A DNA stretch of 64,000 nt from Candidatus Yanofskybacteria bacterium. Lineage in GTDB: Bacteria > Patescibacteriota > Minisyncoccia > 2-02-FULL-40-12 > GWA2-44-9. The position numbers and the translations under genes were made by a program. Shown in pieces: positions 85-45,803 of this stretch (its first letter is position 1; each line of letters opens with the position of its first letter). The DNA lies in contig JACPNL010000019.1 in the NCBI GenBank assembly GCA_016185505.1, positions 2,885 through 66,884 on the forward strand. The letters are read 5' to 3'. The notes under the pieces are model-generated. The model saw nothing but the letters and a program-made list of their open reading frames with translations. It was not told where the DNA came from and searched no databases.

Positions 85-414
85 TGGAGGCGTTCATCAA
101 GGTCGGCTAGCTTCGGATGGACATCGAAGCGATAGCGTAAAGGCAAAAGCCGGCTTAACTGCAAGGCGGATGTGCCGCGCTTCGAAGGGCAACCTTCGAA
201 GATGTGTGGAGAGGGCCTTCTTATGCTGGATTATGAGGTGCTTGCACTTCGTAGCTTTAGCGAAGAAGTGAGATGCGAAAGCAGGACTTAGTGAACCGAC
301 TCTAGCTCGTAGGAGCGGAGAAGATCATCAGATAAAAGCTACCCCGGGGATAACAGGCTGGTACCACCCGAGCGTTCCTAGCGACGGTGGTGTTCGGCAC
401 CTCGATGTCGGCTC

Positions 415-1296: not shown

Positions 1297-1329
1297 GCTT
1301 ATCCTGGGGGTGAAGAAGCTCCCAAGGGT

Positions 1330-2187: not shown

Positions 2188-2237
2188 GTTGGCTGTTCGC
2201 CAATTAAAAAGCTACGCGAGCTGGGTTCAGACCGTCC

Positions 2238-3018: not shown

Positions 3019-3081
3019 CGTGAGACAGGTTGGTCCATATCTGGTGCGGGCGTTAATACTTGAGAGGAGTTGTCCCTAGTA

Positions 3082-3965
3082 AAGTATTGCTACTTCACGG
3101 AGTAATCCGTGATGACAACGCGACTAATAACGGTGGAATCTTAATATTTCTGGATCTGTTGATAGCCATAATTTCAATCGGTCCGTAAATTGTGGTACAA
3201 TTTACTTGAGGACCAGAAACTATTAAGACAATACCGTGGGAAGTCGATCTAAAATTGATCTAGCGTATATGGCCGGTTTTCTTGATGGAGACGGAAGCTT
3301 GATGTTCCAACTCAAGAAACGCAAAGACGGCAAAAAGAAATGGCGGTTTATGTGCACTGTCTGTTTTTATCAAGACAGCAGGCACGATAAGACACTTCAT
3401 TGGATAAGAAGCAAGCTAAATATTGGCTATGTGTCTAAACGCAATGATGGAATGTCAGAGTTGAGAGTAAATGGGTTTAAACAAATCCGAGATATTCTCA
3501 ATGACTTATTGCCATTTGTGAAGTTTAAAAGAGTCCAGGCAAATGCTATGCATAAAGCCACGACCCTTTTGAGCAAAAAGCATAGTGGTCAACTTAATAA
3601 AAATGAACTTATTAGATTAGTTGATTATATTCTAGAAATTCAGAAGAAGAACTATGTAACAAAACGCAAGAAAGGCAGAAAAGAGTTATTATCAATTTTG
3701 GGTTTGACCCCGTAACGACTTGTTCTCGCCAACGGCGGGACGGATAGAAGTTTTTTAGCTTCTATAATATGTCGCTGACCAATGGAGGTTGGAGATTAGA
3801 GATTGGATGTTGGATTTATTCTAACTTCTCATTTCTAACCTCTAACTTCCGTTGGTTAAAGATATAGTCTACACCCGTAGTGATACGGGATAATCAATTC
3901 GCAATTCGCGGCATTCGCATATCATTTGTAGATTTGCATTATGTTGCGAGCGGAGAGAGCATGTG
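3082..3965 (+). other. Group I intron 4 in 23S rRNA (at CCTAGTA^CGAGAGGACC) carrying a LAGLIDADG ORF
   Basis: Exon breaks at ~3081 and resumes at 3966 (ACGAGAGGACCGGG). Contains CGCGACTAATAACGGTGGAATC, CCCCGTAACGAC and a CTAACYTC repeat block at 3781-3860. Confidence 0.55.
3236..3715 (+). CDS. LAGLIDADG homing endonuclease (single-motif type)
   Basis: Motif LAYMAGFLDGDGSLMF. Starts directly after the conserved intron motif ATACCGTGGGAAGT (GTG start, or ATG at 3269). Confidence 0.7.
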   Translation: MGSRSKIDLAYMAGFLDGDGSLMFQLKKRKDGKKKWRFMCTVCFYQDSRHDKTLHWIRSKLNIGYVSKRNDGMSELRVNGFKQIRDILNDLLPFVKFKRVQANAMHKATTLLSKKHSGQLNKNELIRLVDYILEIQKKNYVTKRKKGRKELLSILGLTP

Positions 3966-4242
3966 ACGAGAGGACCGGGATGAACGAACCTCTGGTCTGC
4001 CAGCTGTTCTGCCAAGAGCAGCGCTGGGTAGCTATGTTTGGTTCTGATAAGCGCTGAAAGCATATAAGCGCGAAGCAGGCCTCAAGATTAGGTATCGGGA
4101 CGCAAGTCCCAAAATTTCCTTGTAGATGACGAGGTTGATAGGGCTTAGGTGTAAGCGCCGTGAGGCGTTGAGCCGAGAGCTACTAATAAATTTACTTTGA
4201 GTAATTTGTCGCTCCTCACTTTTGTTCGGAGCTCTTCCTACA

Positions 4243-4338
4243 AATTACGAATTTTTACAAATATACGAATGGGTTGAAAAATTTTAATTTAATCCTTCCT
4301 TCAGTATTCGTAAATTCGTACTGATTAGTAATTCGTAG
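4243..4338. repeat. TACGAAT / ATTCGTA repeat block in the 23S-5S spacer
   Basis: ATTACGAATTTTTACAAATATACGAATGGG ... TATTCGTAAATTCGTACTGATTAGTAATTCGTAG. The same motif family recurs at 23991, 28553 and 59885. Confidence 0.5.
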
Positions 4339-4460
4339 TAAAGGAGCCGCGAGCGGAAGCGAGGGGCGACGGGTGATTTCGGTATAAAATTAAGTTTTTT
4401 CCCCAAGAGTGAAACGAAGAGGGTGCGTTCCACCCCTTTCTGGAAAATAAAAATTATTGG

Positions 4461-4574
4461 CTTGGTGGCAATGCTGACGTTGTACTACCTGATCCCATTC
4501 CGAACTCAGAAGTAAAAGACGTCAAGGCCCATGATAGTCAGCATTAGCTGGCGAAAGTAGGTAGCCGCCAGACC
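4461..4574 (+). rRNA. rrf: 5S rRNA
   Basis: CTTGGTGGCAATGCTGACG...CCCATTCCGAACTCAGAAGTAAAAGACG...GGCGAAAGTAGGTAGCCGCCAGAC aligns with the bacterial 5S consensus. It is flanked by the inverted repeats CTGGAAAATAAAAATTATTGG / CCAATAATTTTTATTTTTATCCAG, which would form a processing stem. Confidence 0.8.
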
Positions 4575-33999: not shown

Positions 34000-34959
34000 A
34001 TGAGAAGAATTTGGCTTCTTTGTCTTACGCTTAGTGTCTCGAGCTCTTTGTTTTGGGGTTGCGAACCGCCGACAGAATTAAACCGGAATATATATCGAGA
34101 CGAGAATTTTTTCCCGCTTCCGGGTGATTTAAAAAATACAAGCGCATTTCTTGTTTTGGAGTGGAATGGCAGAAAGCCGTGGATAATGGCTTCGGGCAAT
34201 TTAATTGATAAGAAAGAAGGACTCATACGCACGGCTAAGCATTTCACTGATGATTTCGGTAAACTCGGTTTGGATTATTGCAGGGTCTTTTTAATGAACG
34301 GCAAGATATATAAAGCTACCCTTACCAAAGTTACGCCCATTCGCGACGCCGCAATTATAAAATTAATTCCGCCATTCTCGCCCGATGATTTTACTGACCC
34401 CTTATTGTCTGCTTCCGAAATGCCTAAATTCGGAGACACGGTCTATGTCCAAGGACTTCATCCCCATGCTTATGATATAAGGCGGGCAAATAAAGAAGAA
34501 GGTTTTTCGGATCAAGTGGTTAATATCTTTGAGACCTATTACGGACAACTGTTTAAAGATACAAGCCAAGAGTTGCAGGTTGTGTTTGATAACCTTGAGG
34601 GCAAAAGAGTAAAACCCGATCCGGACTCAATTCGTAATAATCCTTGGCTTAGCGTCGAAGACAAAAAAGCTCTGCTGGAGTTTGAAAACGACAGATACAT
34701 CAAAGTGTTAACGGCGCGAGACCATAAGTCTCCCTTTAGCGGATTGAGCGGCGGAGTCGCGCTAAACGGGAAAGGCGAGGCCTTCGGTGTCATAACTGCT
34801 CAAAACCCGATGAGGTTTGAAATTGACGATCAGGGGTTATTTTTTATCCCCGGGATCGGCCCGGCCAAGATGGGGGAAGTCAAGAAACAGTTTTGGGATA
34901 CAATATACATTACACCGTTAGATTCAATTAAGGACTTGGATAAATATCCTCAAAATTAG
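34000..34959 (+). CDS. Secreted/lipoprotein trypsin-like (S1) serine protease
   Basis: Signal peptide with a lipobox-like LFWGC. Catalytic-triad contexts TAKHF, RDAAIIKL and GLSGGVALN (cf. TAAHC / DIALLKL / GDSGGP). Confidence 0.55.
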   Translation: MRRIWLLCLTLSVSSSLFWGCEPPTELNRNIYRDENFFPLPGDLKNTSAFLVLEWNGRKPWIMASGNLIDKKEGLIRTAKHFTDDFGKLGLDYCRVFLMNGKIYKATLTKVTPIRDAAIIKLIPPFSPDDFTDPLLSASEMPKFGDTVYVQGLHPHAYDIRRANKEEGFSDQVVNIFETYYGQLFKDTSQELQVVFDNLEGKRVKPDPDSIRNNPWLSVEDKKALLEFENDRYIKVLTARDHKSPFSGLSGGVALNGKGEAFGVITAQNPMRFEIDDQGLFFIPGIGPAKMGEVKKQFWDTIYITPLDSIKDLDKYPQN

Positions 34960-35025
34960 GGATTGACACTCAATCTCTTTTTCATTACTCTTACTCCTAA
35001 AGTTCATTGAAAATTTGAGGTAAAA

Positions 35026-36138
35026 ATGCCGCTTACAGATCCGAATGAAGGAAGAAGATTACTAAGAAAATGGGAAGAACAACCGAACAAGGTCGTATTT
35101 GGAATTCCACGCGCAATTTTTAATTGTGTGTTGGCCATGATTACGCCAGTTGCCCGTGACGGCGATTTTGGCAAGGAGTATGCTCAAGCCCACGTGTATT
35201 TGCTTGATCTGATGGGCCGGGGGAAAACGGCTGTTCTCAAATATCTCTCCGTTGGAGTAAAAGCAAAACTTGGACGAGTTGACGGCCGGCCGGACATGAT
35301 GCCGTCGGACTTAACAGGATATGAATATGTTGACAGATTCACCGGCGCCAGGACCTTGTTAAAGGGACCCCTTCATAGCAACATTCTTTTCTGTGACGAG
35401 TTGAACAGAACCCCTCCAAAGGGTCAAGCAGTTATGTTGGGCTCTATGGAAGGCAGTTATGTGATTATGTATATAATCGATCCCAAAACAGGCAGGTTAG
35501 AAGCCAAATCGTTTCCTCTTTATCCCATATCGGATGATCCCAACGAAACAAGAACGTATTTTATAACCCTTGCTACGGGTAATCCGATTGAATTTGAGGG
35601 TACCTATCCGCTCTCGGAAGCGCAAAAGGAAAGATTTACTTATTCTTTCAGAATGGGGCTTCCTGATCCGGAAAGTGAGATGAAGATACGTCCCTGGAAC
35701 GTCATGAATGAAAAAATCGAAACAGTTATGGACTTGGCCACCCTTTTGGATATTCAGGGGATGGTTAAACAAATTCGGTTCGCTAGAGAAACCGATGAGT
35801 CCGTGAAGCGTCTCATATTGAATTCTAGGCCCCAGTCTCAGGACATGAAAGAATGGGGCGAAATAATACCTCGCCACGCAACACCCGATCTGGTGAAGTG
35901 TGTTAACAGGTATGTTGCTTCCGGCTGCTCTCCTAGGAGAAATTATCACATGGTTGGGGCGACGCAGGCGTGGGCTTTTATACGAGGCGAAGACAAAATA
36001 GCGACAGTTGATGACGTTAAAGCAATTGCGCCCATAACAATGGAGCATGTTATTTTGCTTCAGCCGTGGGCTGAAGGAGATGGCGTTTCGGCGCAAGCGA
36101 TTGTTCAAAAAATAATCGATGAAACGGAAATGCCATGA
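35026..36138 (+). CDS. MoxR-family AAA+ ATPase
   Basis: LLDLMGRGKTAVLKYLS...GRVDGRPDMMPSDLTGYEY...ILFCDELNRTPPKGQAVMLGSMEG matches MoxR Walker A and B and sensor spacing. The Walker A reads GRGKT rather than GVGKT. Confidence 0.75.
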   Translation: MPLTDPNEGRRLLRKWEEQPNKVVFGIPRAIFNCVLAMITPVARDGDFGKEYAQAHVYLLDLMGRGKTAVLKYLSVGVKAKLGRVDGRPDMMPSDLTGYEYVDRFTGARTLLKGPLHSNILFCDELNRTPPKGQAVMLGSMEGSYVIMYIIDPKTGRLEAKSFPLYPISDDPNETRTYFITLATGNPIEFEGTYPLSEAQKERFTYSFRMGLPDPESEMKIRPWNVMNEKIETVMDLATLLDIQGMVKQIRFARETDESVKRLILNSRPQSQDMKEWGEIIPRHATPDLVKCVNRYVASGCSPRRNYHMVGATQAWAFIRGEDKIATVDDVKAIAPITMEHVILLQPWAEGDGVSAQAIVQKIIDETEMP

Positions 36139-37073
36139 AACAATTTGAGTTCAATGAGGTCGTATCGGCGCTTACCCATATTCGAGGCGGTATTCCAGCG
36201 GTCAGATTATCAACGAGGATTCGTTTGGGCCAGCATAGAAGTATTTTCTTCGGTCCCAGTTATGATTTTTACGATATTCAGGAATATGACCCGGAGCGTG
36301 ATCCGCCGAATCAAATAATCCACTCTTCTGTCGGTTCAGACGAGGATATGATCTATGCTCGTAAATGTATCGAACAGCACGAAGTCAAGGTGATTGTTCT
36401 GTCTGACTTGAGTTCGTCTATCGATGCGGGTACGGACTTTGCTAGAAGGCGCTTACTTCTCGAATCGATCGGCTATATAGGGCTTACCGCGGCTCGCTAT
36501 CAAAATCCACTGGGTCTAGTTGGTTTTGCGGATAAGGTTATTTTAAAGTTGCCGGCCAGATGCGGCCAGAATAATTTTTATCATTTGCTTAGATTAACAT
36601 ATGATTTTTTGGCAGAACGCGATCCTGATCAAGCAAAGACCCTTGCTAGAAAAACAGATTTTTTCGTCGCCCTTGACTTCGTCAGAAGGTCTTTCGGCCA
36701 GCGATGTTTTATACCGATGGTCTCCGATTTTATTGGATTTGAGAATGTCGTTAATTCGTCTCTCTTGAGAACCGTTGCCGCAAAGCACGAACTGATATTC
36801 ATTTTTTTAGACGACCCCATGGAACTTATTGCCGCACAAGGTATAGGATATTTGCGGATGGAAAATATTGAGGACGAGGACGGCAAACAAGCCATTGTTT
36901 CTAGACGGAAACTGCCGAAACTTGAAAAGGACTTGCGTCAAAAAAGAAAAGAGTTGAGACGGGAGTTGGCAAGATTAAGTATCGGCTCCACTGTTCTAGA
37001 ATATGGCAAACACTTTAATCGCCTCCATAGATTTTTTACGAAAAGACACAAACTTTTAAATGTCAGACACTGA
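36135..37073 (+). CDS. DUF58-family protein (MoxR partner; vWA-like fold)
   Basis: Overlaps the moxR stop by 4 nt. Size and position are typical of DUF58 in Bat-type operons. Confidence 0.6.
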   Translation: MKQFEFNEVVSALTHIRGGIPAVRLSTRIRLGQHRSIFFGPSYDFYDIQEYDPERDPPNQIIHSSVGSDEDMIYARKCIEQHEVKVIVLSDLSSSIDAGTDFARRRLLLESIGYIGLTAARYQNPLGLVGFADKVILKLPARCGQNNFYHLLRLTYDFLAERDPDQAKTLARKTDFFVALDFVRRSFGQRCFIPMVSDFIGFENVVNSSLLRTVAAKHELIFIFLDDPMELIAAQGIGYLRMENIEDEDGKQAIVSRRKLPKLEKDLRQKRKELRRELARLSIGSTVLEYGKHFNRLHRFFTKRHKLLNVRH

Positions 37074-37134
37074 CATGCGCATCCTTGACGGTTGCGCTTT
37101 TTTTATTTATCTTTTTTCAAAAGCACATTAATAA

Positions 37135-38238
37135 TTGGGGAAAGCGATGCTGTATAAAGTGCTGTTTTGCGTCGCCGTGTTGCTTATCGGAACTCCTCCA
37201 GAAATTCAAGCCCAAGAAGTTGTTCCAACTGTCGTTGAAATGCAGAGGGATTCTACCAAACCGACTACCGTAAGAACAGGAGAGCCGTTTACCCAGGTTT
37301 ACAAAATAAGCTATATCCGCTCAAAAAACCCGAAAAGGTGGGGGAAAGAAGTTCTTATTCTTGAAGACCAGATGAGACCCCTCGTCTTTCCGGCGCCTCT
37401 CGGCGATTTTGAAATAATCGGCTGGGTTCTGGATGAACCGGTGGCTACTGAAGGCGAAGAGACAGACGAGCTTACGCGGTATCTGCGACTCACCTTAAGG
37501 ATTATCAAACCTAAAAAAGATGCTTATGAAGTGCCCAAATTCAATGTCTATTGGGCATTGAAGAATGGCGATAAAATCGAAAACCAAGATCCGATAGAGA
37601 CGGAACCAGTTCACGTCAATTACGTGACTACGGCAACAAAAGACCCATATCTTGATATTCGCGACAATATCGAATCTGGCGGCTATTTTCGAGAAGCAAA
37701 TATGTTCTGGTGGATATCTCGGCTAGGTTTCTTGGGCATATTTATCTCCTTATTTTTGCTGGTAGCGTCGCTGCGTCTGGTAAAACATCGCAAGATGGAA
37801 AGATCCAAAGAAAAACCGACTGAAGAAGAGGGTCAGGAGTGCGTGGTTGTATCCAAGCCGCTTTCTTTTAACCAAGCGTATAGAAACTTTTTTAAAGAAG
37901 CCGGTAGATTATCCAAAGAACGCGGATTATCAGATCTGACCATGGAAAGGAGTTTATACACGGCTGTTCGTAATGTTTTAGCAACTAGATTGGGAAAGAT
38001 TAAGCCAGGGGATACTGCCGCTGATATTGGACTCTATATTGAGAAAAATGTAAAAGCGGGGGTTTACAAAAACACCTTGTTTGAATTACAGAAAGCTCTT
38101 GTTTTTCATCGAAAAAATATTGAATCCGGTGTGGCATCTATGCTGACTGACTCCTATTTATACAAACTCAAGGGTTTGGTTCGTTTGCTTAAGCGTCGTT
38201 GGCGAATTATGGCATTTCTAAGGAAGAGAAAAGTATGA
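37135..38238 (+). CDS. BatD-like membrane protein (exported N-domain, single TM, cytoplasmic C-domain)
   Basis: Signal peptide, ~190-aa extracytoplasmic domain, TM helix ISRLGFLGIFISLFLLVASL, then a basic cytoplasmic domain. Confidence 0.45.
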   Translation: MGKAMLYKVLFCVAVLLIGTPPEIQAQEVVPTVVEMQRDSTKPTTVRTGEPFTQVYKISYIRSKNPKRWGKEVLILEDQMRPLVFPAPLGDFEIIGWVLDEPVATEGEETDELTRYLRLTLRIIKPKKDAYEVPKFNVYWALKNGDKIENQDPIETEPVHVNYVTTATKDPYLDIRDNIESGGYFREANMFWWISRLGFLGIFISLFLLVASLRLVKHRKMERSKEKPTEEEGQECVVVSKPLSFNQAYRNFFKEAGRLSKERGLSDLTMERSLYTAVRNVLATRLGKIKPGDTAADIGLYIEKNVKAGVYKNTLFELQKALVFHRKNIESGVASMLTDSYLYKLKGLVRLLKRRWRIMAFLRKRKV

Positions 38239-39374
38239 ATTTTTACGAAATTCTGGCTACCGGCTTAGATTCGTTGTCTGGTATTAGCCCTTCCGAAATC
38301 AAATATTCCCAGTGGCATATATCTGTCTGGCTGGCAGCTATACTGGCTATGCTAGTTATGCTGAAGTCATTGTTTAGCCGGAACAGCGATTCGCAAAAAT
38401 GTTCCGGCTATTTAATTCCCGCTTATTATCATCGGGGTTTCTCCCGTCAATTAGTTGATCTATTATTCAAGACAACTCTTGCGCTTGGCGTGGGTATGCT
38501 TCTCGTCGCGCTGGCTGATCCGTTTGTGCCGACAATTAAGACGGAGTCTGTTTTGAAAGAATCTAAGGAAAGGATAGATCTGATCGACGTTTCTACGTCC
38601 AAGGGCTGGTTATTTGAAAATATCGGCAAATCAGCCGGACGACTGGGGAGAGAAGCGCATCTTAAATTTCTAAAGATGCGCCAAGGCAAAAACGACAGAG
38701 TGTCTTTGTGGCTCTTTTCAACGAAAGCCACTAAGGTAGAAAGCTTTATCGCTGATGACGAACTTTATTATCAGCAGGTTGAAGATGCTCCGTATGTGAT
38801 CACCAGTCCGGGAAATCCTTGGCTGCCTCAGTTTAATTACCCTGCATCTTGCCACGTAAATATTCCCGAAAGCCGTTTGGAGTTAGTGTTCGCGGAAGGC
38901 GGGACTTTCTTAGATACCGGTCTTAGGTCGGTAATTAGACACTTTGACGAGGAAGGCGATAAAAGAATAAAAAGAAAAGCCGTTATCATAGAAACAGACG
39001 CCGCTGTAGACGTTTTTCCTAAAACAGAATTACAGGAATTACGCAAAAAAAATATTCATCCCTATTTTCTGTACATAAAACCAAACGAAGAATGCGAAAC
39101 ACTGGCTGGCAATATGTATAAAGGGCTTGTAAACGCGCAGAGATTGAAATTGGAAATTGAAAAATACGGGGGCAAATTTTATGATATTCAAAACGCAGAC
39201 AGTCTGAACAGGGCTTATCAGGATATTGACCGGCTTGAAGCGGTTGAACTCAAAGAAACCCATGTCGTTGACAAGCTGTACTTGTTTCAGGCGTTTATTC
39301 TGCTGGGTATCTTAATTGCGGTTATAGCAATTACCGGCATTTTAGTGGCTGAAATTTTTGGGATTTATCCGTAA
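38235..39374 (+). CDS. vWA-domain membrane protein (BatA-like), paralog 1
   Basis: N-terminal TM helices, MIDAS motif DVSTS and a C-terminal TM helix. A paralog of the ORF at 39481 (HLKFLKMRQGKNDRVSLWLF vs HLEFLKMREGKNDRVSFWIF). Confidence 0.6.
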   Translation: MNFYEILATGLDSLSGISPSEIKYSQWHISVWLAAILAMLVMLKSLFSRNSDSQKCSGYLIPAYYHRGFSRQLVDLLFKTTLALGVGMLLVALADPFVPTIKTESVLKESKERIDLIDVSTSKGWLFENIGKSAGRLGREAHLKFLKMRQGKNDRVSLWLFSTKATKVESFIADDELYYQQVEDAPYVITSPGNPWLPQFNYPASCHVNIPESRLELVFAEGGTFLDTGLRSVIRHFDEEGDKRIKRKAVIIETDAAVDVFPKTELQELRKKNIHPYFLYIKPNEECETLAGNMYKGLVNAQRLKLEIEKYGGKFYDIQNADSLNRAYQDIDRLEAVELKETHVVDKLYLFQAFILLGILIAVIAITGILVAEIFGIYP

Positions 39375-39480
39375 TCCCGTCTTCTCTTGTTTGAAGGCGG
39401 GTTTTTGTTTAGTATTGCGGCAAGTACGTTAAAAATTTAAGGGGCAGATTAAATGAAGCATTATTGTAGAGACAGAACTT

Positions 39481-40617
39481 ATGCTTAAGCGTATTTGGGA
39501 CACGGTTCTTATGATTTGGGAAGAAATTTATGATTTTTTGGGCATAAATTTTATGGAGATACATTATCCCGATATCAATTTTTCCATAGTCGCTGGTCTG
39601 ACTCTCTTATCACTGTTTTTGGTTAAAATTTTATGGCGGCGTCTTAAGCGGGACAAAAACGCGCAGAAACATTCCGGCCACGAAATAAGCAGATATTATT
39701 TGCGGGGGTTGATCGCCATGTTTTTAAGCGCTATTTCCAAAGGCGTGTTCGCGCTGGCGGTTGCCGGCGTTCTCTTGGCTCTAGCCGAACCGTTCTTAGA
39801 TCAGATAAGGGAAGACCAAAAGGTCATAGAATCAAGAGTCAGAGTTGACGTAAGGGACGTTTCGAGTTCGATGAAATTATTTTTCCCGAATGTTTCCAAG
39901 TCAAAAGCTCAAGTTGCCGCTGAAGCTCATTTAGAATTTTTAAAAATGAGAGAGGGTAAAAATGACAGAGTTTCTTTTTGGATTTTTGCTTCGTATCCGC
40001 ATCTGATTGAAGACTTTATCTCCGATGACGCCCTTTACTATCAGCAAGTTGAAGATGCTCCATGGTTAGCGCAGAGTATGAATATGGAATCTTCGTTCGG
40101 ATCGCAGGTGGTACCCGCAGAGAGATACGGCGCAATCTCCGGAGAAGGCGGAGGAACAGACATAGTTCTTATCCTTCAAGCGGTAATAAAACAGTTTGAC
40201 GAGGACGAAAAAAAGTTAGCAAAAGCGGGCATTAACATTAGAAGAATAAAAAGATCGGTGCTGGTGCTTACTGATGCCGAAGTATATGCGATACCTGATA
40301 ATGAATTAAACGGACTGCAACAAAGAAATATCAAGCCCTATGTTATCTGGATTAAAAGTTCGTTAGTGATTTCTACCCCTGATTTTATCAGCCGGGTACG
40401 CGCTTACGGCGGAGAGTATTTTGATGTTACCGACGAAAACAGTTTGGCAAGGGCCTACGAGTCAATCGACAAATTAGAAACCGCAAAGGTGGTGATTACT
40501 AGAAAATCATTTCAACTGCCTCTTTTTCAGAATTTTATTTTCATGGCTATCGTGATAATGTTTGTTGCCGTCTTTGTGGCTTTGTTGATTGAACCATTCG
40601 GTGTTTATCCAGAATGA
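39481..40617 (+). CDS. vWA-domain membrane protein (BatA-like), paralog 2
   Basis: MIDAS DVSSSM; same architecture as the ORF at 38235. Followed by the terminator AAACCTCCGTTATTGCGGAGGTTTTTT at 40628-40655. Confidence 0.6.
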   Translation: MLKRIWDTVLMIWEEIYDFLGINFMEIHYPDINFSIVAGLTLLSLFLVKILWRRLKRDKNAQKHSGHEISRYYLRGLIAMFLSAISKGVFALAVAGVLLALAEPFLDQIREDQKVIESRVRVDVRDVSSSMKLFFPNVSKSKAQVAAEAHLEFLKMREGKNDRVSFWIFASYPHLIEDFISDDALYYQQVEDAPWLAQSMNMESSFGSQVVPAERYGAISGEGGGTDIVLILQAVIKQFDEDEKKLAKAGINIRRIKRSVLVLTDAEVYAIPDNELNGLQQRNIKPYVIWIKSSLVISTPDFISRVRAYGGEYFDVTDENSLARAYESIDKLETAKVVITRKSFQLPLFQNFIFMAIVIMFVAVFVALLIEPFGVYPE

Positions 40618-40701
40618 TCAAGCGTCAAACCTCCGTTATTGCGGAGGTTTTTTAATTATTGTATAGTATCGCAAAGTTCATTTACATTGAGAAAAGCAAC
40701 T

Positions 40702-41442
40702 GTGGCAGAGAAAAGCGTGGCCAGGCGAGTTATCGGTTCAATTTTGGTTTTGATCACTGCTGTCGCTATGGGTTTTGTCGGCGACTGCCTGTATCAACTT
40801 AACGACCGCCGCAATCGGCTTCACTTGAATATCGCCAGTGGCGACCGCGAGCCATCTCGCGCCGAGCTGAATAATGTAAAATATTTTGACGGATTAGCGC
40901 GGCAATGGAAAATGCATTGGTTTGTCGCAGGCCGCTATCTGCTTAACAGCGATGATGCCATGCTTTACGAAGTGATTGTCGATGATTATTTGGTTGGTGA
41001 CTACAAGAAAGTGGCAGAATCAGAGCAGTTAAGGTCAAGCGACGACTATCGCGCCGCCCATCTTGTGGGAGTTGCCAAGGTTAGGCTTTTGCAGGCCGAA
41101 TACCGAGAAGAGAAAAAACCGGCGGCCCAAAAAAAGCTCATGGAGAAACTGGTCCAGCGCATGATTGATGACGTCAGTCCTTATTTTAAAAAAGCGGTTG
41201 AGAATAGCCCTGATTTCGAATTTCCCGATCCTAACTTTGGTGACCGCTTTAACTACGACTTAACAAGCGATAGGGATGCCGCCAAAAGACTGATTGAAAA
41301 CAAAAAGCCGGCCCGGAAATTTATTTTGGGAATTCCTCAATTGCCCGGAGATGAGTTTGGCGACAAGAAAGCGCCTGGGGAAAAGGGTCTTAACGAAGAA
41401 ACTCAACCGGGTGCCGGCGGTAATTCCAAGAAGAAGAGCTAG
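40702..41442 (+). CDS. Hypothetical membrane-anchored protein (possibly BatC-like)
   Basis: TM anchor VIGSILVLITAVAMGFVG followed by a charged helical domain. Start uncertain (GTG at 40702 or 40717; the ORF tracks from 40639 inside the terminator). Confidence 0.4.
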   Translation: MAEKSVARRVIGSILVLITAVAMGFVGDCLYQLNDRRNRLHLNIASGDREPSRAELNNVKYFDGLARQWKMHWFVAGRYLLNSDDAMLYEVIVDDYLVGDYKKVAESEQLRSSDDYRAAHLVGVAKVRLLQAEYREEKKPAAQKKLMEKLVQRMIDDVSPYFKKAVENSPDFEFPDPNFGDRFNYDLTSDRDAAKRLIENKKPARKFILGIPQLPGDEFGDKKAPGEKGLNEETQPGAGGNSKKKS

Positions 41443-41444
41443 CC

Positions 41445-42614
41445 ATGATAGCAAAACTGGCCGAATTCAGAAACCTTCAGTTTATTAGCCCGGAATATTT
41501 CAGTTTGTTTAACTTTCTTTATATTCTGCTTGTCGTCTGGCTTGTTGTTTTCGCTGTCCGATATAAAGAACGCGTGAACCGAACAGTCGGTTCGCGCCGT
41601 GTTCTGATTGGCAGAATGTTAAAATTTAACCTTGTTGTTATTGCCGTCGTTCTTCCTTTATCAATTCTGGCTTTATCCAGGCCATATCTTTCCGAGGGCG
41701 CTCTACAGTTTAAAAAAGGCGCTGTTGAGGTTATTTTTATTGTGGATGATTCGGTTTCAATGTGGGCGAAGGATATTGTGCCATCTCGGTTGGGAGTATC
41801 GGCTCGGGAAATTGCCCGGGTCTATGCGGACCAGATATTGAAAGAAGGAGATAAAGCGTCTCTGGTTATTTTCGGCAAGACGTCTTTGAAAAAATTGCGT
41901 CTTTCCACAGATTTTGAACGTTTTTATAGCGAGATTTTGAAAATAGGCCCGCCTGAAAGTCTGACCGGTGACGATCATCCGTGGGATTCCGATATCGCTT
42001 TGGCTCTGACGGATACTTACAACTTTCTTGATATGCAGGACAAGCGGTTAGCATATCGGACACGGTTTGGAAAAAATCCGCCCTTGGATTTTGATTGGGA
42101 AACATTTAGTTGGCAACCGGATAAAAAATCTAGCAGGATTGTCATATTTTTTGGTGATGGCGATTATCGTTTTGATGAATATACTGAAGAAAAAACAAAA
42201 CAACTCCAAGCATCTTTAGCGGAATTTCGTCGGCGAGGTCTTAAAATTTATTCGGTAGGCGTAGGCACTAAACAGGGTTACCCTGTGTACAGAGTCCTTG
42301 ATGATTATAAAAGAGGCGTTGATTATTTTGAGCAAACTGAAATTGAGTTGAAAGAGGAAGGAATGACCCGGCTTAATAGAATTACTCTGAATTTTCTAAG
42401 TAGCCAGACCGGCGGCAGTATGGCTACGATTGAAAATAGTACGGGAAGCGCGGCAAATTTTCTGCGCGTTGCTATTGACGGCCACAGGGAGTTAACTGTC
42501 ACTGTCGCCAGTGAACAACAAAAACAAGAATTTTGGAGAGAATTTTTGTACGCGGCATTACTGATTTTTGGGTTAGCTTTTCTCATTATTTTTGTATTGT
42601 CCCCCTATCTGTAG
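41445..42614 (+). CDS. vWA-domain membrane protein (BatA/BatB-like), paralog 3
   Basis: Two N-terminal TM helices, MIDAS IFIVDDSVSM, and a C-terminal TM helix. Confidence 0.65.
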   Translation: MIAKLAEFRNLQFISPEYFSLFNFLYILLVVWLVVFAVRYKERVNRTVGSRRVLIGRMLKFNLVVIAVVLPLSILALSRPYLSEGALQFKKGAVEVIFIVDDSVSMWAKDIVPSRLGVSAREIARVYADQILKEGDKASLVIFGKTSLKKLRLSTDFERFYSEILKIGPPESLTGDDHPWDSDIALALTDTYNFLDMQDKRLAYRTRFGKNPPLDFDWETFSWQPDKKSSRIVIFFGDGDYRFDEYTEEKTKQLQASLAEFRRRGLKIYSVGVGTKQGYPVYRVLDDYKRGVDYFEQTEIELKEEGMTRLNRITLNFLSSQTGGSMATIENSTGSAANFLRVAIDGHRELTVTVASEQQKQEFWREFLYAALLIFGLAFLIIFVLSPYL

Positions 42615-43685
42615 ATGGGGGCTTTTTATTACCGCTTCCATGCTGTACTCTATAGTTTGAGCATGTATTTGCGCGACTCTATTTTAGCGACCATTCTTTA
42701 TTATAATTCTTTTAATTTTCCGCTTACTTTTGCGGAGGTTTTTAAGTATCTTATAAATCCGCAAAGATTGAGGTTAAACCTCAATCAAGGGAGGATATTA
42801 AGGTCAGACTTCAATGAAAGGAGGTCTGACCTTGAATTTGGAGCGGCGGAGATTGCCGTCGAGTTGGAAAATATGGCCAGGGTAGATCTTATAGGTCATA
42901 AGAATGGGTTTTATTTTTTACCCGGGCGGGAAGATCTTTACGAAAAAAGAATAGAGAAAGACAAGTTGGCAAACAGAAAATGGAAAAAATTTCTCTCTAT
43001 AGCCAAATATCTTCAATTCGCGCCTTATTTGGGAGCTGTTTTTGCAAGCGGTTCTTTGGCGGCCAATAATCCCGAACCGAAAAGCGATTTTGATGTTTTC
43101 GTAATTGTTAGATCTGGTCGGCTTTATACCGGACGATTTTTCTTATGGCTGATCTCGTCGGTCCTTGGAGCCAGGCGTGGCCGGTTTGATGTCGTTGCTC
43201 CCGACAAGCTTTGCTTCAATCACTACTTAACCGACGATAATCTCGAATTGTCTCATCGCGGTCTCTATATCGCGCAGTCGCTTGCGAACATGAGGCCGGT
43301 CATTATGTCCGACGGGGTCTTGGAAAAATTCATAATATCAAATAAATGGGCCAGTTCTTATTGTTATAATTTAAGGCAGACAAGTTCCTACAGGAATGTA
43401 AAACCAAATAAAATTATGATTTCGACGGCTAGAATTTTTGAGTTGTTCCTAGATAATTTTGTCGGCGATTTATTGGAAAAAATCTTAAAAATTATCCAGC
43501 AAAAAAGAATAAAGAAAAACCCCGCTACTTACGAATCCGGCGGGCGGATTATTTTTAATGACAAGGAGCTTGAGTTTCACCCTCGTTCTTTCGAAAAAGT
43601 GGTTATTGATAATTATAACAGCGGACTCAAAAAGTTCGGCATATTGGGAGTCGAAGAAAAGGATTCGGGTTTGACCTGTGGATAA
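42615..43685 (+). CDS. Hypothetical protein with a minimal nucleotidyltransferase (Pol-beta-like) motif
   Basis: GSLAANNPEPKSDFDVFVIV fits the GS-x(9-13)-DhD NTase signature. Confidence 0.4.
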   Translation: MGAFYYRFHAVLYSLSMYLRDSILATILYYNSFNFPLTFAEVFKYLINPQRLRLNLNQGRILRSDFNERRSDLEFGAAEIAVELENMARVDLIGHKNGFYFLPGREDLYEKRIEKDKLANRKWKKFLSIAKYLQFAPYLGAVFASGSLAANNPEPKSDFDVFVIVRSGRLYTGRFFLWLISSVLGARRGRFDVVAPDKLCFNHYLTDDNLELSHRGLYIAQSLANMRPVIMSDGVLEKFIISNKWASSYCYNLRQTSSYRNVKPNKIMISTARIFELFLDNFVGDLLEKILKIIQQKRIKKNPATYESGGRIIFNDKELEFHPRSFEKVVIDNYNSGLKKFGILGVEEKDSGLTCG

Positions 43686-43801
43686 ACGACTTGCGAAGTC
43701 GTTTATCCACAGGTTGCTTTGTAATGTCGTTACGCTGTGTTGATTTCTCTTTGGATTGTGGTAGCGTTGGATAAAGTTCATTAACTACAAGAGGCAAAAT
43801 A

Positions 43802-45649
43802 ATGACGAGGATGCTTCGTCCGATTTTGCTGGCGATGTTATTCATATTTATGATCGGGCCTTCCGTTTTCGCGCAGACGCCGAAACCGAAGATATTGAAA
43901 ATGTCTGAAATTCAGTTTAACACCCCAGCAGTCGGATTCTCTGTTTTCAGAGGAGTTGAGCCGGAGAGATTCGAAGTCAAAATCAAGCACGTAACCGATA
44001 TCGAGGGATTTCCGATAATACTTGCCCGTATCTCGGGTGGTCCTATGGAGACGCCGTTGGAAAAAATCGGCGCTGTTGAGGCAATGAGCGGCAGTCCGAT
44101 ATTTGTCGGTTGCGTTGAACTTGAAGAATGTGTCAGAAAAGTGGTTCTTCCCGATAACGACGTGTTTCTTGTCGGGGCTTTGAGTTATGCCCTCGGTTAT
44201 TTTATAGAAGATGGTCCAAATGTCGGACTGACAACGGCAGAATATATGCTGGGAGCGCGGCTAGGCGGTTATGCGGCTACGAGGCAGTTCTCAATTCGCC
44301 CGCCGAATAAAATAATTGTTGACGGTCGGGAATTCAAAAATCTCATGCTTTTTTCGGGAATTGACGGTTTGCAGACGCGGGGGGCGCTGCCCGACGGCAG
44401 TTGCGGCGAATCAGTCCAAAGCGATATCGGGCCGGGTTCAATGGTAACGGTTTTTCTCGCGAGAGGTTCGCGCAATATCGGTGGTTCAGGCACGGTAACC
44501 TGGAGAGACGGCAATACCATCTATATTTTTGGCCACCCGTTTTTTGGCACCGGCGCGGTAAGCTACCCGTTTGCGCAAGTGTCTGTAGCGGATACGCTTC
44601 AGACACCGTTTCAGGCTCACAAAATTATCGGTTGCCGTCTTAAAACGGAAGGCGAGATGCAGATGGATGGAATGTTTGAGATGGCTGGCGTTATCGGCCG
44701 GTCCGCCCGGCTATTGCCGTTTCAAGTTGAGATAGGCGATGATCTGGCTGTTTTTTCTGAAGAGATTGCGGAAAGTCCTCTCGCTTCTCTAATTATCAGT
44801 CAGCTTCCGGTTGTATGGGCGCAGAGCTTCCTTGGCGACCTAAGCCAAGTATCCGCGATTTATCAGACGCGTATAGCGGTAACGGATCATCCCGAAATAT
44901 TTTTGAGCGGGCTGTCGCCCGCGCAAGTGGTTAAAAATCCTTTTGCCGGGATCTTTTCCGAAATTAACCCTGTGCTGGGAAAATTAAGAGACAGTGGCTT
45001 TAGGTATAATTTAGAAGGCATCAAGACACATATTGATCTGGCCAGAGGCGCGAGCGTGTGGACAGAAAAGCGATCATTTCTATCGCAAAATACGGCGAAG
45101 CCGGGAGAGACGGTTTATGTGAACATTGTGCTTGAAGAGCGGTCAAGAGGGTTGAGAAGGCAGGTTAGTATTCCAGTCAAAGTGCCCGACGACTTTAATG
45201 ACAGATTAACTTCCGGGATTCCTCCTCAATTTTCAGTGATCGTGCAAAGCGCCGATAAATTTGTTGATAAAAACGCTTCCAAAGAATTTGCGTCTTTGCG
45301 CGATGTAATCGAGGCGATCAACGAATCAGCCGCGCGGTGGCAGAACGTTTTGTATGTTCAGCAAATTATGCCGTTGACGAAAGCGAAACACGAAGCCGTG
45401 GAGGAGGCCGCCAAGTTATCGGTTCAGCCGGATTGGAGCTGGGTTGAGCTGGATCAGGGAGCCATGTCCAGATTGCCTAAAACGGAAGAGACAGAGATCA
45501 TATTGACAAGCACGCCGGGGTTGGCCCATTTCATTAGCTTCGACGCGACTTTTAAGATCTTAGTCAAATCTTCGGATACAGCATCAGGCGGATCTGTAAA
45601 GAAAAATAAAAGATGGTTTGATTATCTCAAAGTATGGAGAATATTTTAA
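43802..45649 (+). CDS. Secreted protein with a GxSGSP serine-peptidase-like motif (S55/SpoIVB-like?)
   Basis: Signal peptide MLRPILLAMLFIFMIGPSVFA and the motif AMSGSPIFVG. 615 aa, otherwise unassigned. Confidence 0.35.
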   Translation: MTRMLRPILLAMLFIFMIGPSVFAQTPKPKILKMSEIQFNTPAVGFSVFRGVEPERFEVKIKHVTDIEGFPIILARISGGPMETPLEKIGAVEAMSGSPIFVGCVELEECVRKVVLPDNDVFLVGALSYALGYFIEDGPNVGLTTAEYMLGARLGGYAATRQFSIRPPNKIIVDGREFKNLMLFSGIDGLQTRGALPDGSCGESVQSDIGPGSMVTVFLARGSRNIGGSGTVTWRDGNTIYIFGHPFFGTGAVSYPFAQVSVADTLQTPFQAHKIIGCRLKTEGEMQMDGMFEMAGVIGRSARLLPFQVEIGDDLAVFSEEIAESPLASLIISQLPVVWAQSFLGDLSQVSAIYQTRIAVTDHPEIFLSGLSPAQVVKNPFAGIFSEINPVLGKLRDSGFRYNLEGIKTHIDLARGASVWTEKRSFLSQNTAKPGETVYVNIVLEERSRGLRRQVSIPVKVPDDFNDRLTSGIPPQFSVIVQSADKFVDKNASKEFASLRDVIEAINESAARWQNVLYVQQIMPLTKAKHEAVEEAAKLSVQPDWSWVELDQGAMSRLPKTEETEIILTSTPGLAHFISFDATFKILVKSSDTASGGSVKKNKRWFDYLKVWRIF

Positions 45650-45803
45650 CCAAGAGCGGTTCTTGACACCGCTCTTTTATTTGCTAAAATGTTAACCGTT
45701 AGCGCTTAGACGGTCGGACTGCTAAATAGAGCGTAGAACGTGGAGGGTGGAACGTGGTTTTACTAACAACTTTCTACTATCTACATTCTACATTCAAGGT
45801 CGT

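What the first reader, a model, noticed from the sequence alone, without database searches (positions are those of the whole stretch)
34000..45649. Bat-like MoxR / DUF58 / vWA membrane-protein cluster expanded with three vWA paralogs, a nucleotidyltransferase-motif protein and two secreted serine-protease-like proteins
The collinear plus-strand genes are: secreted S1-like protease, MoxR AAA+ ATPase (Walker A variant GRGKT), DUF58, BatD-like bitopic protein, vWA (MIDAS DVSTS), vWA (DVSSSM), a membrane-anchored helical protein, vWA (DDSVSM), a minimal NTase-motif protein, and a GxSGSP-motif secreted protein. The MoxR-DUF58-vWA-BatD core is the aerotolerance (Bat) operon architecture of Bacteroides, Leptospira and others, whose mechanism is still unknown. 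Here it is embedded between two exported protease-like proteins and an NTase. In a reduced genome this is a large investment, about 11.6 kb.
Basis: partly seen in the sequence, partly recalled or inferred. Interest (0 to 1): 0.5.

Follow-up and report, generated by a model that had tools for sequence, protein, structure and literature searches.

The report
Divergent Bat-like MoxR/vWA membrane module
An ultra-small groundwater bacterium (Candidatus Yanofskybacteria) carries a very divergent version of the widespread but still unexplained MoxR-ATPase / DUF58 / von Willebrand-A membrane gene cluster; the nucleotidyltransferase-like and second protease-like genes next to it are only neighbours, and the cluster is an optional, reshuffled module in related genomes.

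Summary

Genes g2-g8 form a true Bat-type module:
- g2 is a MoxR AAA+ ATPase and g3 is DUF58.
- g4 is a bitopic protein with a weakly BatD-like ectodomain.
- g5, g6 and g8 are three 3-TM vWA paralogs with invariant MIDAS residues. Their vWA domains are predicted to face outward.
- g7 is a type-II anchored helical protein.

The NTase-like g9 and the SpoIVB/S55-like g10 are not part of it. In 29 of 52 related species-level genomes, uvrC sits next to g9(-g10)-groESL with no MoxR, DUF58 or vWA gene between them. Module and g10 each occur without the other.

The trypsin-like lipoprotein g1 has an intact His-Asp-Ser triad. Its tree matches that of the membrane genes, so it is probably an accessory.

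Module trees conflict with backbone trees, and partly with each other, at 100% bootstrap support. The closest relative by GroEL lacks the module. It is therefore a dispensable, mosaic, fast-evolving envelope module.

The mechanism is inferred: a cytoplasmic MoxR-DUF58 motor remodelling an outward-facing MIDAS complex. I rate it a new variant of a known kind, of moderate interest.

The parts
34000..34959 (+). g1: trypsin-like (S1/Trypsin_2-like) serine protease, predicted lipoprotein. Probable accessory of the module.
   Evidence: Trypsin_2 at 1.8e-5, below Pfam's cut-off. Cys21 (lipobox), H81, D116 and S250 (GLSGG) are invariant. Its NJ tree is congruent with the membrane-gene tree and incongruent with the backbone. 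It occurs alone next to g9 in L018 and L053.
34958..34978 (+). Terminator-like hairpin plus U-tract after g1.
   Evidence: dG -9 kcal/mol, z -4.4.
35026..36138 (+). g2: MoxR-family AAA+ ATPase from a lineage-specific clade with three insertions. NCBI MBI2674527.1.
   Evidence: AAA_3 at 2.9e-28 and AAA_lid_2 at 5e-9. Walker A G64/K67/T68, Walker B D124/E125, N186, R203 and R304 are invariant. The clade spans about 78 clusters at 46-99% identity, then drops to about 30% for ordinary MoxR.
36135..37073 (+). g3: DUF58 protein, a cytoplasmic vWA-like adaptor with no TM segment. Its start overlaps the g2 stop.
   Evidence: DUF58 at 7.8e-17. DLSSS (D91...S95) and S197-D198-F199 are conserved. No TM segment is predicted.
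37147..38238 (+). g4: bitopic membrane protein. It has a signal peptide, a beta-rich ectodomain of about 170 aa (weakly BatD-like), a TM segment at 194-212 and a cytoplasmic helical bundle of about 150 aa.
38235..39374 (+). g5: 3-TM vWA protein (BatA-like) with MIDAS DVSTS. Its start overlaps the g4 stop (ATGA).
   Evidence: NCBI names it 'VWA domain-containing protein', MBI2674530.1.
39376..39401 (+). Terminator-like hairpin plus UUUUUGUUU after g5.
   Evidence: dG -15.7 kcal/mol, z -4.8.
39481..40617 (+). g6: tandem paralog of g5 (37% identity), a 3-TM vWA protein with MIDAS DVSSS. The duplication is shared with L001 and L022 only.
40627..40650 (+). Terminator-like hairpin plus U-tract after g6. 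It overlaps the upstream-most candidate start (TTG, 40639) of the g7 ORF.
   Evidence: dG -15.4 kcal/mol, z -4.0.
40702..41442 (+). g7: type-II anchored (N-in) extracytoplasmic helical protein with a Gly/Lys/Pro-rich tail. It occupies the position of BatC, but a TPR fold is not demonstrated.
   Evidence: No recurrent Pfam hit. The PDB profile search gave nothing significant.
41445..42614 (+). g8: 3-TM vWA protein (BatB-like) with MIDAS DDSVS.
   Evidence: VWA_2 at 1.8e-5, just below Pfam's cut-off, and NCBIfam VWA_BatB_Lepto at 5.9e-8, far below its cut-off. D101, S103, S105 and D238 are invariant. Topology.
42663..43685 (+). g9: Pol-beta-type nucleotidyltransferase-like cytoplasmic protein. 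An adjacent backbone gene, NOT part of the module.
   Evidence: NTP_transf_2 in 5 of 5 orthologues. The family has 4607 representative clusters. It lies directly next to uvrC in 29 genomes without the module.
43811..45649 (+). g10: secreted SpoIVB/S55-like protein. An adjacent backbone gene, NOT part of the module.

Best explanation
Genes g2-g8 (35026-42614), probably with g1 as an accessory, form a lineage-specific and highly divergent member of the MoxR-DUF58-vWA ('Bat-type') envelope modules. The host is a Candidatus Yanofskybacteria (CPR/Patescibacteria) genome.

Shown here:
- g2 has every conserved residue expected of an active MoxR ATPase.
- g3 is a soluble DUF58 (vWA-like) protein.
- g5, g6 and g8 are three homologous vWA proteins with three TM segments each and invariant MIDAS residues.
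- The gene order is conserved across many genomes.
- g9 and g10 are independent of the module.

Inferred from the positive-inside rule and the experimentally determined topology of Borrelia BB0173:
- The vWA/MIDAS domains, the g4 beta-domain, g7 and the g1 protease are extracytoplasmic.
- Only MoxR, DUF58, the conserved basic TM1-TM2 loops of the vWA proteins and the C-terminal helical bundle of g4 are cytoplasmic.

Proposed mechanism (inference):
- A MoxR hexamer, coupled through DUF58, uses ATP to act on those cytoplasmic loops and on the g4 tail.
- This assembles or remodels a membrane complex whose outward-facing, metal-dependent MIDAS sites bind envelope or external ligands.
- g1 may process the ectodomains.

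The module is optional and evolves as a mosaic. The physiological output is not known; envelope maintenance or stress tolerance is the guess, by analogy with other Bat-type loci.
For: Family assignments.

Synteny: the order g1-g2-g3-g4-vWA(-vWA)-g7-vWA recurs on contigs with MoxR at 25-88% identity.

Coupling: 4-nt start/stop overlaps at g2/g3 and g4/g5.

Topology:
- All 14 vWA orthologues have three TM segments and a basic TM1-TM2 loop with 4-9 K/R.
- g7 has a basic N-terminus followed by a TM segment.
- g4 has a signal peptide, an ectodomain, a TM segment, and a juxtamembrane region that is basic in the window protein and in most orthologues.
- This matches the experimental topology of BB0173 (PMC5700661).

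Conserved cytoplasmic-loop residues: K56/S69/G70 in the g5/g6 family and R43/T47/S50/G56 in the g8 family.

Independence of g9 and g10. groES has its own promoter and a CIRCE-like operator.

g1 linkage and mosaicism, from NJ trees with bootstrap:
- The g1 tree and the membrane-gene tree share the groups {W,L001}, {L005,L012,L014,L016,L062} and {L007,L011,L020,L021,L023}.
- These conflict with the backbone group {W,L011}, which has 100% support.
- They also conflict with the g2+g3 group {W,L001,L012,L014}, which has 100% support.
Against: - The vWA and trypsin hits for the window proteins are below Pfam's gathering scores.
- BatD similarity is weak, and g7 has no family assignment.
- No canonical BatE was found among the ten ORFs (no SH3 hit), and a TPR BatC could not be shown.
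- Stable terminator-like hairpins follow g1, g5 and g6, so this may not be a single operon.
- g1 occurs without g2-g8 in two genomes.
- The module is absent from the closest relative by GroEL (L029), so it is not essential.
- There are no expression, interaction or phenotype data.
- Even for canonical Bat operons the function is unresolved. Leptospira bat deletions showed no oxidative-stress, growth-rate or morphology phenotype (PMC3557215).
- The trees are NJ on very divergent proteins from MAG contigs.
Confidence: 0.68

Rival explanations
1. One reading: all ten genes (34000-45649) form one expanded Bat system, in which the NTase-like protein and both protease-like proteins are functional components.
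For: The genes are co-directional and closely spaced. The g8-g9 gap is 0-48 nt, with only a weak hairpin. The full ten-gene order recurs in several genomes, for example L011, L012, L021 and L005.
Against: 29 of 52 related genomes have uvrC next to g9(-g10)-groESL with no module. g10 occurs without the module in 8 loci, and the module without g10 in 4. The g9 family has 4607 representative clusters against about 78 for the MoxR clade. Distant g10 homologues sit next to trp and ECF-sigma genes. A strong hairpin follows g9.
Confidence: 0.06
2. The module is a surface adhesion or host-interaction device of an episymbiotic CPR cell. Outward-facing MIDAS vWA domains bind a partner-cell ligand, and the cytoplasmic MoxR/DUF58 motor switches them on, as in integrin inside-out activation. 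Diversifying selection and exchange of 'types' would explain the variability.
For: - The vWA/MIDAS domains are predicted to be extracytoplasmic, and this organism is a monoderm-type CPR bacterium (my own knowledge).
- Extracytoplasmic components differ far more between genomes (25-40% identity) than MoxR/DUF58 (50-75%) or GroEL.
- There are discrete module types with trees discordant to the backbone, plus presence/absence polymorphism.
- Borrelia BB0172, a vWA protein from a Bat-like locus, binds integrin (PMC5700661).
Against: - Each vWA domain is tethered by TM helices on both sides. It stays at the membrane surface, probably beneath the wall or S-layer.
- MIDAS and core residues are invariant, which suggests a common ligand.
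- Fast evolution of exported proteins is generic.
- Nothing is known about a host for this lineage.
Confidence: 0.15
3. The module is a MoxR-vWA threat-sensing or conflict system of the kind described by Kaur, Burroughs, Iyer and Aravind (eLife 2020, PMC7159879). It would sense invaders at the surface and signal inward.
For: - The MoxR + vWA pairing, variability and patchy distribution fit.
- beta-propeller (PQQ) genes are inserted in or next to the cluster in L003 and L007.
- A MoxR-vWA sensing pathway has been reported in hosts of epibionts (PMC13622651).
Against: - No effector, kinase, FHA or toxin domain is present.
- DUF58 and 3-TM BatA/B-type vWA proteins are hallmarks of the Bat-type class, not of the ternary systems.
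- There are no PADLOC hits.
- The PQQ genes lie on the opposite strand and are absent here.
Confidence: 0.05
4. The cluster is a decaying relic with no current function in this genome.
For: It is lost in many relatives. g2 and g3 are split or truncated in L013. Only a g1 remnant remains in L018 and L053.
Against: All eight window ORFs are intact. The catalytic and MIDAS residues are conserved. The overlapping start/stop pairs at g2/g3 and g4/g5 are retained.
Confidence: 0.04

Closest known systems
Bat (Bacteroides aerotolerance) operon and its spirochaete/Rhizobium/Francisella counterparts: MoxR - DUF58 - (small TM protein) - BatA - BatB - BatC(TPR) - BatD - BatE
   Same: MoxR (AAA_3) is immediately followed by DUF58, and then by multi-pass vWA/MIDAS membrane proteins, a membrane-anchored helical protein and a signal-peptide-bearing beta-rich protein. 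All are co-directional. The 3-TM vWA topology matches that of BB0173. The function is equally unknown.
   Different: - The sequences are so divergent that the Pfam BatA, BatD, VWA and TPR models miss them or score below threshold.
- The BatD-like protein sits third, not after the vWA genes. It also carries a cytoplasmic helical bundle of about 150 aa.
- No BatE/SH3 is detectable, and TPR is unproven.
- MoxR has three clade-specific insertions.
- There are three vWA paralogs instead of two, but only in the window, L001 and L022.
- A co-inherited trypsin-like lipoprotein is present.
- The host is a CPR bacterium, which lacks an outer membrane (my own knowledge), so 'periplasmic' domains would be surface-exposed.
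Actinobacterial MoxR1-DUF58-vWA/transglutaminase clusters (e.g. M. tuberculosis Rv1479-Rv1481; Bifidobacterium PFNA cluster)
   Same: A MoxR-DUF58 pair is followed by membrane proteins in monoderm or diderm-mycolate bacteria (PMC8430577 and PMC12067865 were listed; the details are from my own knowledge).
   Different: No transglutaminase-like or FN3 protein is present here. This cluster has several BatA/B-type vWA paralogs instead.
MoxR-vWA pairs with known clients (RavA-ViaA, NorQ-NorD, CbbQ-CbbO)
   Same: An AAA+ MoxR ATPase works with a cytoplasmic vWA/MIDAS adaptor. Here DUF58 would play that role (PMC9976466 was listed; the principle is from my own knowledge).
   Different: Those systems remodel a defined soluble or membrane enzyme. 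No client enzyme gene is present here, and additional outward-facing vWA proteins are.
SpoIVB (peptidase S55), for g10 only
   Different: Only the Ser-bearing C-terminal barrel is matched, and it lies at the N-terminus of a protein of about 610 aa. There is no PDZ domain. The invariant residues run Ser96...His245...Asp289. It is not linked to the module.

Membership tests
MoxR AAA+ ATPase (Pfam AAA_3 / MRP-type) | AAA_3 domain scoring above the gathering score, plus an AAA lid. | tested here: met
   AAA_3 scores 98.8 bits against a cut-off of 27. AAA_lid_2 scores 36.2 bits against 22.7.
MoxR AAA+ ATPase (Pfam AAA_3 / MRP-type) | Intact Walker A, Walker B, sensor 1, Arg finger and sensor 2. | tested here: met
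   G64/K67/T68, D124/E125, N186, R203 and R304 are invariant in alignments that include ordinary MoxRs. The first P-loop Gly is replaced by Asp across the clade.
DUF58 (PF01882) | A Pfam DUF58 match above the cut-off, in a soluble protein encoded immediately after MoxR. | tested here: met
   61.6 bits against a cut-off of 23.4. The start overlaps the g2 stop by 4 nt. No TM segment is predicted.
BatA/BatB-type vWA membrane proteins | A vWA fold with MIDAS residues (DxSxS...T...D). | tested here: met
   DxSxS is invariant in both families, with a later Thr and Asp invariant in the g5/g6 family and an Asp in the g8 family. g8 hits VWA_2 at 1.8e-5 and BatB_Lepto at 5.9e-8. The g5/g6 family against the g8 family gives hhalign 97.4%. 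The g5/g6 profile hits the PDB vWA entry 4rck at 1e-3. Scores for the single window proteins are below the curated cut-offs.
BatA/BatB-type vWA membrane proteins | Two N-terminal TM helices plus one C-terminal TM helix, with the vWA domain extracytoplasmic. | tested here: met
   All 14 orthologues have three TM segments and a basic TM1-TM2 loop. This is a prediction only, but it is consistent with the experimental topology of BB0173.
BatA/BatB-type vWA membrane proteins | A Pfam BatA_N (PF07584) match. | tested here: not met
   No PF07584 hit was found for g5, g6 or g8 at E <= 0.1. There are only weak NCBIfam BatA_Lepto matches to the C-terminus.
BatD (PF13584) | A signal peptide, a BatD beta-domain and a C-terminal TM segment. 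| tested here: inconclusive
BatC (TPR protein) | A membrane-anchored protein with TPR repeats. | tested here: inconclusive
   g7 is N-terminally anchored and helical. There is no TPR Pfam hit in 17 orthologues and no significant PDB hit.
BatE (SH3/TPR) | An SH3-containing protein at the end of the operon. | tested here: not met
   No SH3 hit was found in any of the ten ORFs. The next genes are g9 (NTase-like) and g10.
MoxR-vWA-VMAP ternary conflict systems (Kaur et al. 2020) | MoxR, a soluble vWA protein and a VMAP protein, with effector or signalling domains. | tested here: not met
   No effector, kinase or FHA domains were found. There are no PADLOC hits. DUF58 and 3-TM vWA proteins are present instead.
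Chymotrypsin-fold serine protease (g1) | A His-Asp-Ser triad in H...D...GxSGG order. | tested here: met
   H81, D116 and S250 are invariant. Trypsin_2 scores 26 bits against a cut-off of 27.6, so it is just below.
Peptidase S55 / SpoIVB (g10) | A full S55 protease domain with catalytic His and Ser. | tested here: inconclusive
Pol-beta-type nucleotidyltransferase (g9) | hG[GS]...[DE]x[DE] motif with an NTP_transf_2 match. | tested here: met
   SGS...SDFD is invariant. NTP_transf_2 matches in 5 of 5 orthologues, best E 3.7e-4, and scores above the cut-off in distant family members. The substrate is unknown.

The most novel reading that the evidence does not exclude
The Yanofskybacteria module could be an exchangeable, 'serotype-like' cell-surface apparatus. 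In this reading a cytoplasmic MoxR-DUF58 motor controls outward-facing MIDAS vWA domains by inside-out activation, as integrins are controlled, for attachment to or sensing of a partner cell. The discrete module types, the intra-module recombination and the repeated loss would then reflect diversifying selection at the symbiont-host or symbiont-phage interface. If so, it would give the long-unexplained Bat-type systems a testable function.
Probability: 0.13. Interest if true: 0.7.

Novelty: new variant of a known kind. Interest (0 to 1): 0.38.

Why it matters
MoxR-DUF58-vWA ('Bat') clusters are among the most widespread bacterial gene neighbourhoods without a known mechanism.

This lineage offers a stripped-down natural version in a cell that lacks an outer membrane. 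The division of labour is clear. Two components are cytoplasmic and conserved, and five or six are extracytoplasmic and fast-evolving.

The lineage also provides natural knock-outs, because related genomes have an empty site. It provides natural domain swaps too, because the module types are mosaic.

Together these make specific hypotheses testable:
- Which cytoplasmic loops dock the motor.
- Whether the ectodomains bind envelope or external ligands.

The analysis also corrects the gene content of the system. The NTase-like and S55-like genes should not be carried forward as Bat components.

Tried and rejected
- The exact-sequence contig look-up of the MoxR found nothing.
- The single-protein scan of GTDB genomes found no relatives.
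- The AFDB50 fold library was unavailable.
- PDB sequence-profile searches for g4, g7 and g9 were non-significant.
- The Pfam scan of 17 g7 orthologues gave no recurrent family.
- PADLOC gave no hits, so I rejected a defence-system reading.
- I considered that the 30%-identity MoxRs in L011, L024 and L027 were unrelated replacements. I rejected this because they share the three clade-specific insertions.
- I considered that g1 is merely a backbone neighbour like g9. I rejected this as the primary reading because its tree follows the membrane genes and not the backbone.

Full report
**Source and setting**

The window comes from a metagenome-assembled Candidatus Yanofskybacteria (CPR/Patescibacteria) genome. 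Exact or near-exact matches carry NCBI locus tags HYX22_02210 to HYX22_02255 on a 68.7-kb contig. In the public record only g2 ('MoxR family ATPase') and g5 ('VWA domain-containing protein') are named. The other seven products looked up (g1, g3, g4, g6, g7, g8, g10) are 'hypothetical protein'; g9 could not be looked up.

The flanks are:
- uvrC, a holin-like gene and an SBP_bac_5 gene on the minus strand upstream.
- groES, groEL and CTP synthase downstream.

**Observation**

Ten plus-strand ORFs fill 34000-45649. I call them g1 to g10.

Orthologue alignments and the public annotation move some starts: g4 to 37147, g5 to 38235, g7 to about 40702 (GTG), g9 to about 42663, and g10 to 43811.

The g2/g3 and g4/g5 pairs each overlap by 4 nt, and g7/g8 are 2 nt apart.

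**What each gene is**

*g2 (MoxR).* It matches AAA_3 at 2.9e-28 and AAA_lid_2. Walker A, Walker B, sensor 1, the Arg finger and sensor 2 are invariant in alignments with ordinary MoxRs.

It belongs to a distinct clade of about 78 clusters at 46-99% identity. Similarity then drops abruptly to about 30% for ordinary MoxRs.

The clade has three insertions:
- one before Walker A;
- a central insertion of about 20 aa with a PLxPISxD motif;
- one in the lid.

*g3 (DUF58).* It matches DUF58 at 7.8e-17. It has no TM segment. A MIDAS-like D-x-S-x-S and an SDF motif are conserved.

*g5, g6 and g8 (vWA paralogs).*
- Only g8 touches a Pfam vWA model: VWA_2 at 1.8e-5, below the cut-off. It also hits NCBIfam BatB_Lepto at 5.9e-8.
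- The g5/g6 family aligns to the g8 family from first TM to last TM, with hhalign probability 97.4% and E 1e-11.
- The g5/g6 profile hits the PDB vWA entry 4rck.
- DxSxS is invariant in both families. A later Thr and Asp are invariant in the g5/g6 family, and an Asp in the g8 family.
- All 14 orthologues examined have two N-terminal TM helices and one C-terminal TM helix.
- The TM1-TM2 loop is strongly basic (4-9 K/R) and carries invariant residues.

By the positive-inside rule the loop is cytoplasmic and the vWA domain is outside. This is the topology shown experimentally for the Bat-locus protein BB0173 of Borrelia (PMC5700661).

*g4.* It has a signal peptide, a beta-rich ectodomain of about 170 aa, one TM segment and a cytoplasmic helical bundle of about 150 aa.
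- BatD is the only Pfam family hit by more than one of 17 orthologues: 4 of 17, best E 0.018.

*g7.* It is an N-in, single-pass, mostly helical extracytoplasmic protein with a Gly/Lys/Pro-rich tail. No family could be assigned.

*g1.* It has an invariant lipobox Cys and an invariant H81/D116/S250 (GLSGG) triad. Trypsin_2 scores just under the cut-off.

*g9.* It has the Pol-beta NTase motif.

**Which genes belong together**

Contigs found through the MoxR clade all show the order (uvrC-) g1 g2 g3 g4 vWA(x1-2) g7 vWA. Where the contig extends far enough, g9, usually g10, then groES and groEL follow. Because the flanks are conserved too, that synteny alone cannot define the system.

I therefore anchored a scan of 185,579 species-representative genomes on g9. 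It returned 52 loci from Yanofskybacteria, Paceibacterota and related bins. I mapped all families with tblastn and HMMs.

| State at the site | Loci |
|---|---|
| Module present between uvrC and g9 | 15 |
| uvrC followed by g9 with no MoxR, DUF58 or vWA gene between | 29 |
| g1 only | 2 (L018, L053) |
| Cut by a contig end, or no uvrC detected | 6 |

Further points:
- g10 is present without the module in 8 loci and absent from 4 module-bearing loci.
- The closest relative by GroEL (L029: 90% identity, g9 70%) has neither the module nor g10.
- The g9 family has 4607 representative clusters at E <= 1e-3, so it is far larger than the MoxR clade. One member is fused to a GT2 glycosyltransferase.
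- Distant g10 homologues of about 600 aa with a Peptidase_S55 match sit next to trp and ECF-sigma genes.
- groES has its own strong promoter-like site and a CIRCE-like operator.

So g9 and g10 are backbone neighbours. The module is g2-g8, occupying a variable slot.

**Status of g1, and mosaic evolution**

Pairwise identities show that the cytoplasmic pair g2/g3 is well conserved among 'type A' loci (50-88%). In contrast, g1, g4, g5/6, g7 and g8 fall into discrete groups. Identity is about 34-72% within a group and about 20-36% between groups.

I ran NJ bootstrap analysis (200 replicates, 15 taxa). W denotes the window.

| Gene set | Groups and bootstrap support |
|---|---|
| Backbone (uvrC+g9+groEL) | {W,L011} 100%; {L001,L016,L022,L023} 91% |
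| Membrane set (g4-g8) | {W,L001} 100%; {L005,L012,L014,L016,L062} 100%; {L007,L011,L020,L021,L023} 100% |
| g1 | the same three groups, at 87%, 93% and 92% |
| g2+g3 | {W,L001,L012,L014} 100% |

The g2+g3 group is incompatible with the membrane-set bipartition.

Three conclusions follow:
- g1 shares the history of the membrane genes, which supports it as an accessory of the module.
- The module's history differs from that of its chromosomal backbone.
- g2-g3 and the membrane genes have partly separate histories.

The 30%-identity MoxRs of L011, L024 and L027 keep the three clade-specific insertions. They are therefore divergent members of the same clade and not unrelated replacements. Split and truncated g2/g3 ORFs in L013, and the g1-only loci, look like stages of loss.

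Caveats: these are NJ trees on saturated proteins, and the contigs come from MAGs.

**Transcription signals**

Stable hairpins with U-tracts follow several genes:

| After gene | dG (kcal/mol) | Note |
|---|---|---|
| g1 | -9 | |
| g5 | -15.7 | |
| g6 | -15.4 | |
| g9 | -32.9 | 20-bp perfect stem |
| g10 | -13 | |

The hairpin at g8/g9 is not significant. The module may therefore be expressed as several units, or with attenuation. Independent promoters have also been proposed for the Leptospira bat genes (PMC3557215).

**Mechanism (inference)**

The parts divide cleanly between two compartments.
- Cytoplasmic: MoxR, DUF58, the conserved basic loops of the three vWA proteins, and the g4 helical bundle.
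- Extracytoplasmic: three MIDAS vWA domains, the g4 beta-domain, g7, and the g1 protease.

The best-supported model runs as follows:
- A MoxR hexamer uses DUF58 as its vWA-type adaptor. This is the general MoxR-vWA principle seen in RavA-ViaA and NorQ-NorD (my own knowledge; PMC9976466 was listed).
- It acts on the cytoplasmic loops and the g4 tail.
- This drives assembly or a conformational change of an outward-facing, metal-dependent binding complex.

The physiological output is unknown, as it is for all Bat-type loci. Leptospira bat deletions showed no oxidative-stress, growth-rate or morphology phenotype. The variability and exchange of the exported parts leave room for a surface-interaction role, which is the second rival. 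A defence or conflict role is unlikely, because there are no effectors and no PADLOC hits.

**Comparison and novelty**

The module meets the defining features of a Bat-type MoxR-DUF58-vWA cluster for MoxR, DUF58 and the 3-TM MIDAS vWA proteins. The tests are inconclusive for BatC (TPR) and BatD. BatE is absent.

It differs from the canonical operon in these ways:
- The sequences are extremely divergent.
- The BatD-like protein sits third in the order and has a cytoplasmic bundle.
- The MoxR has clade-specific insertions.
- There is a lineage-restricted third vWA paralog, found only in the window, L001 and L022.
- There is a co-inherited trypsin-like lipoprotein.
- The host is a CPR cell, which lacks an outer membrane (my own knowledge).

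Literature searches found no description of such a module in CPR bacteria.

I rate it a new variant of a known kind, with moderate interest (0.38).

Noticed in passing
window 1-4573: The 3' part of the 23S rRNA gene is split. Rfam model positions 2101-2636 map to 1-448, and positions 2652-2912 map to 3947-4193. About 3.5 kb of inserted sequence lies between them and carries three LAGLIDADG homing-endonuclease ORFs (518-1153, 1422-2096, 3236-3715). 5S rRNA follows at 4461-4573. This is the rRNA-intron pattern typical of CPR bacteria.
   Followed up: partly
window 45663-45725: The best sigma-70-like promoter match in the region is TTGACA/TAAAAT (11 of 12, with TG) at 45663-45690. It is directly followed by a CIRCE-like inverted repeat at 45699-45725 (3 mismatches; 0.03 expected by chance), upstream of groES. 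groESL is therefore its own heat-shock-type unit.
   Followed up: partly
window 43811-45649 (g10) and homologues P0122-P0206: This is a family of secreted proteins of about 610 aa. Only the Ser-bearing C-terminal barrel of SpoIVB/S55 is recognisable, and it lies at the N-terminus (S55 model positions of about 117-194 at residues of about 30-116). S96, H245 and D289 are invariant, in Ser-His-Asp order. The AF2 model is confident (pLDDT 86.7) but has no global PDB match by Foldseek. It may be a permuted or re-assembled chymotrypsin-fold protease.
   Followed up: partly
window 42663-43685 (g9); loci L011-L062: This is a very large family of NTase-like proteins of about 330 aa with unknown substrate (4607 representative clusters). 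In Yanofskybacteria and Paceibacterota it is fixed between uvrC and groES. One member (P0300) is fused to a GT2 glycosyltransferase, which hints at an envelope-glycan role.
   Followed up: partly
window 43672-43716: A perfect 20-bp stem hairpin (dG -32.9 kcal/mol, z -6.8) overlaps the g9 stop codon and has only a weak U-tract. It is unusually long for a terminator. I did not check whether it is conserved.
   Followed up: no
L007 3161-4530; L003 16892-18385; L007 8362-9870: In related loci, a reverse transcriptase plus a bAvd-like gene (a diversity-generating-retroelement signature) lies next to uvrC in L007. Opposite-strand PQQ beta-propeller genes are inserted beside or inside the cluster region in L003 and L007. 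This is further sign that the slot is a hotspot for insertions.
   Followed up: no
L001 18911-20806; L022: The g10 copies of L001 and L022 are 69% identical to each other but only about 20-26% identical to all other g10 orthologues. A second, very divergent g10 type therefore occupies the same position.
   Followed up: no
L013 1128-2505 and 3863-5354: uvrC and MoxR are each split into two ORFs and DUF58 is truncated in this MAG contig. This is either gene decay of the module or assembly and frameshift errors.
   Followed up: no
loci L013-L059 (record titles): Many GTDB records titled 'uncultured Candidatus Saccharibacteria bacterium' share the Yanofskybacteria/Paceibacterota uvrC-g9-groESL synteny. 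Their GroEL is 72-83% identical to the window. The titles look like generic or incorrect taxonomic labels.
   Followed up: no
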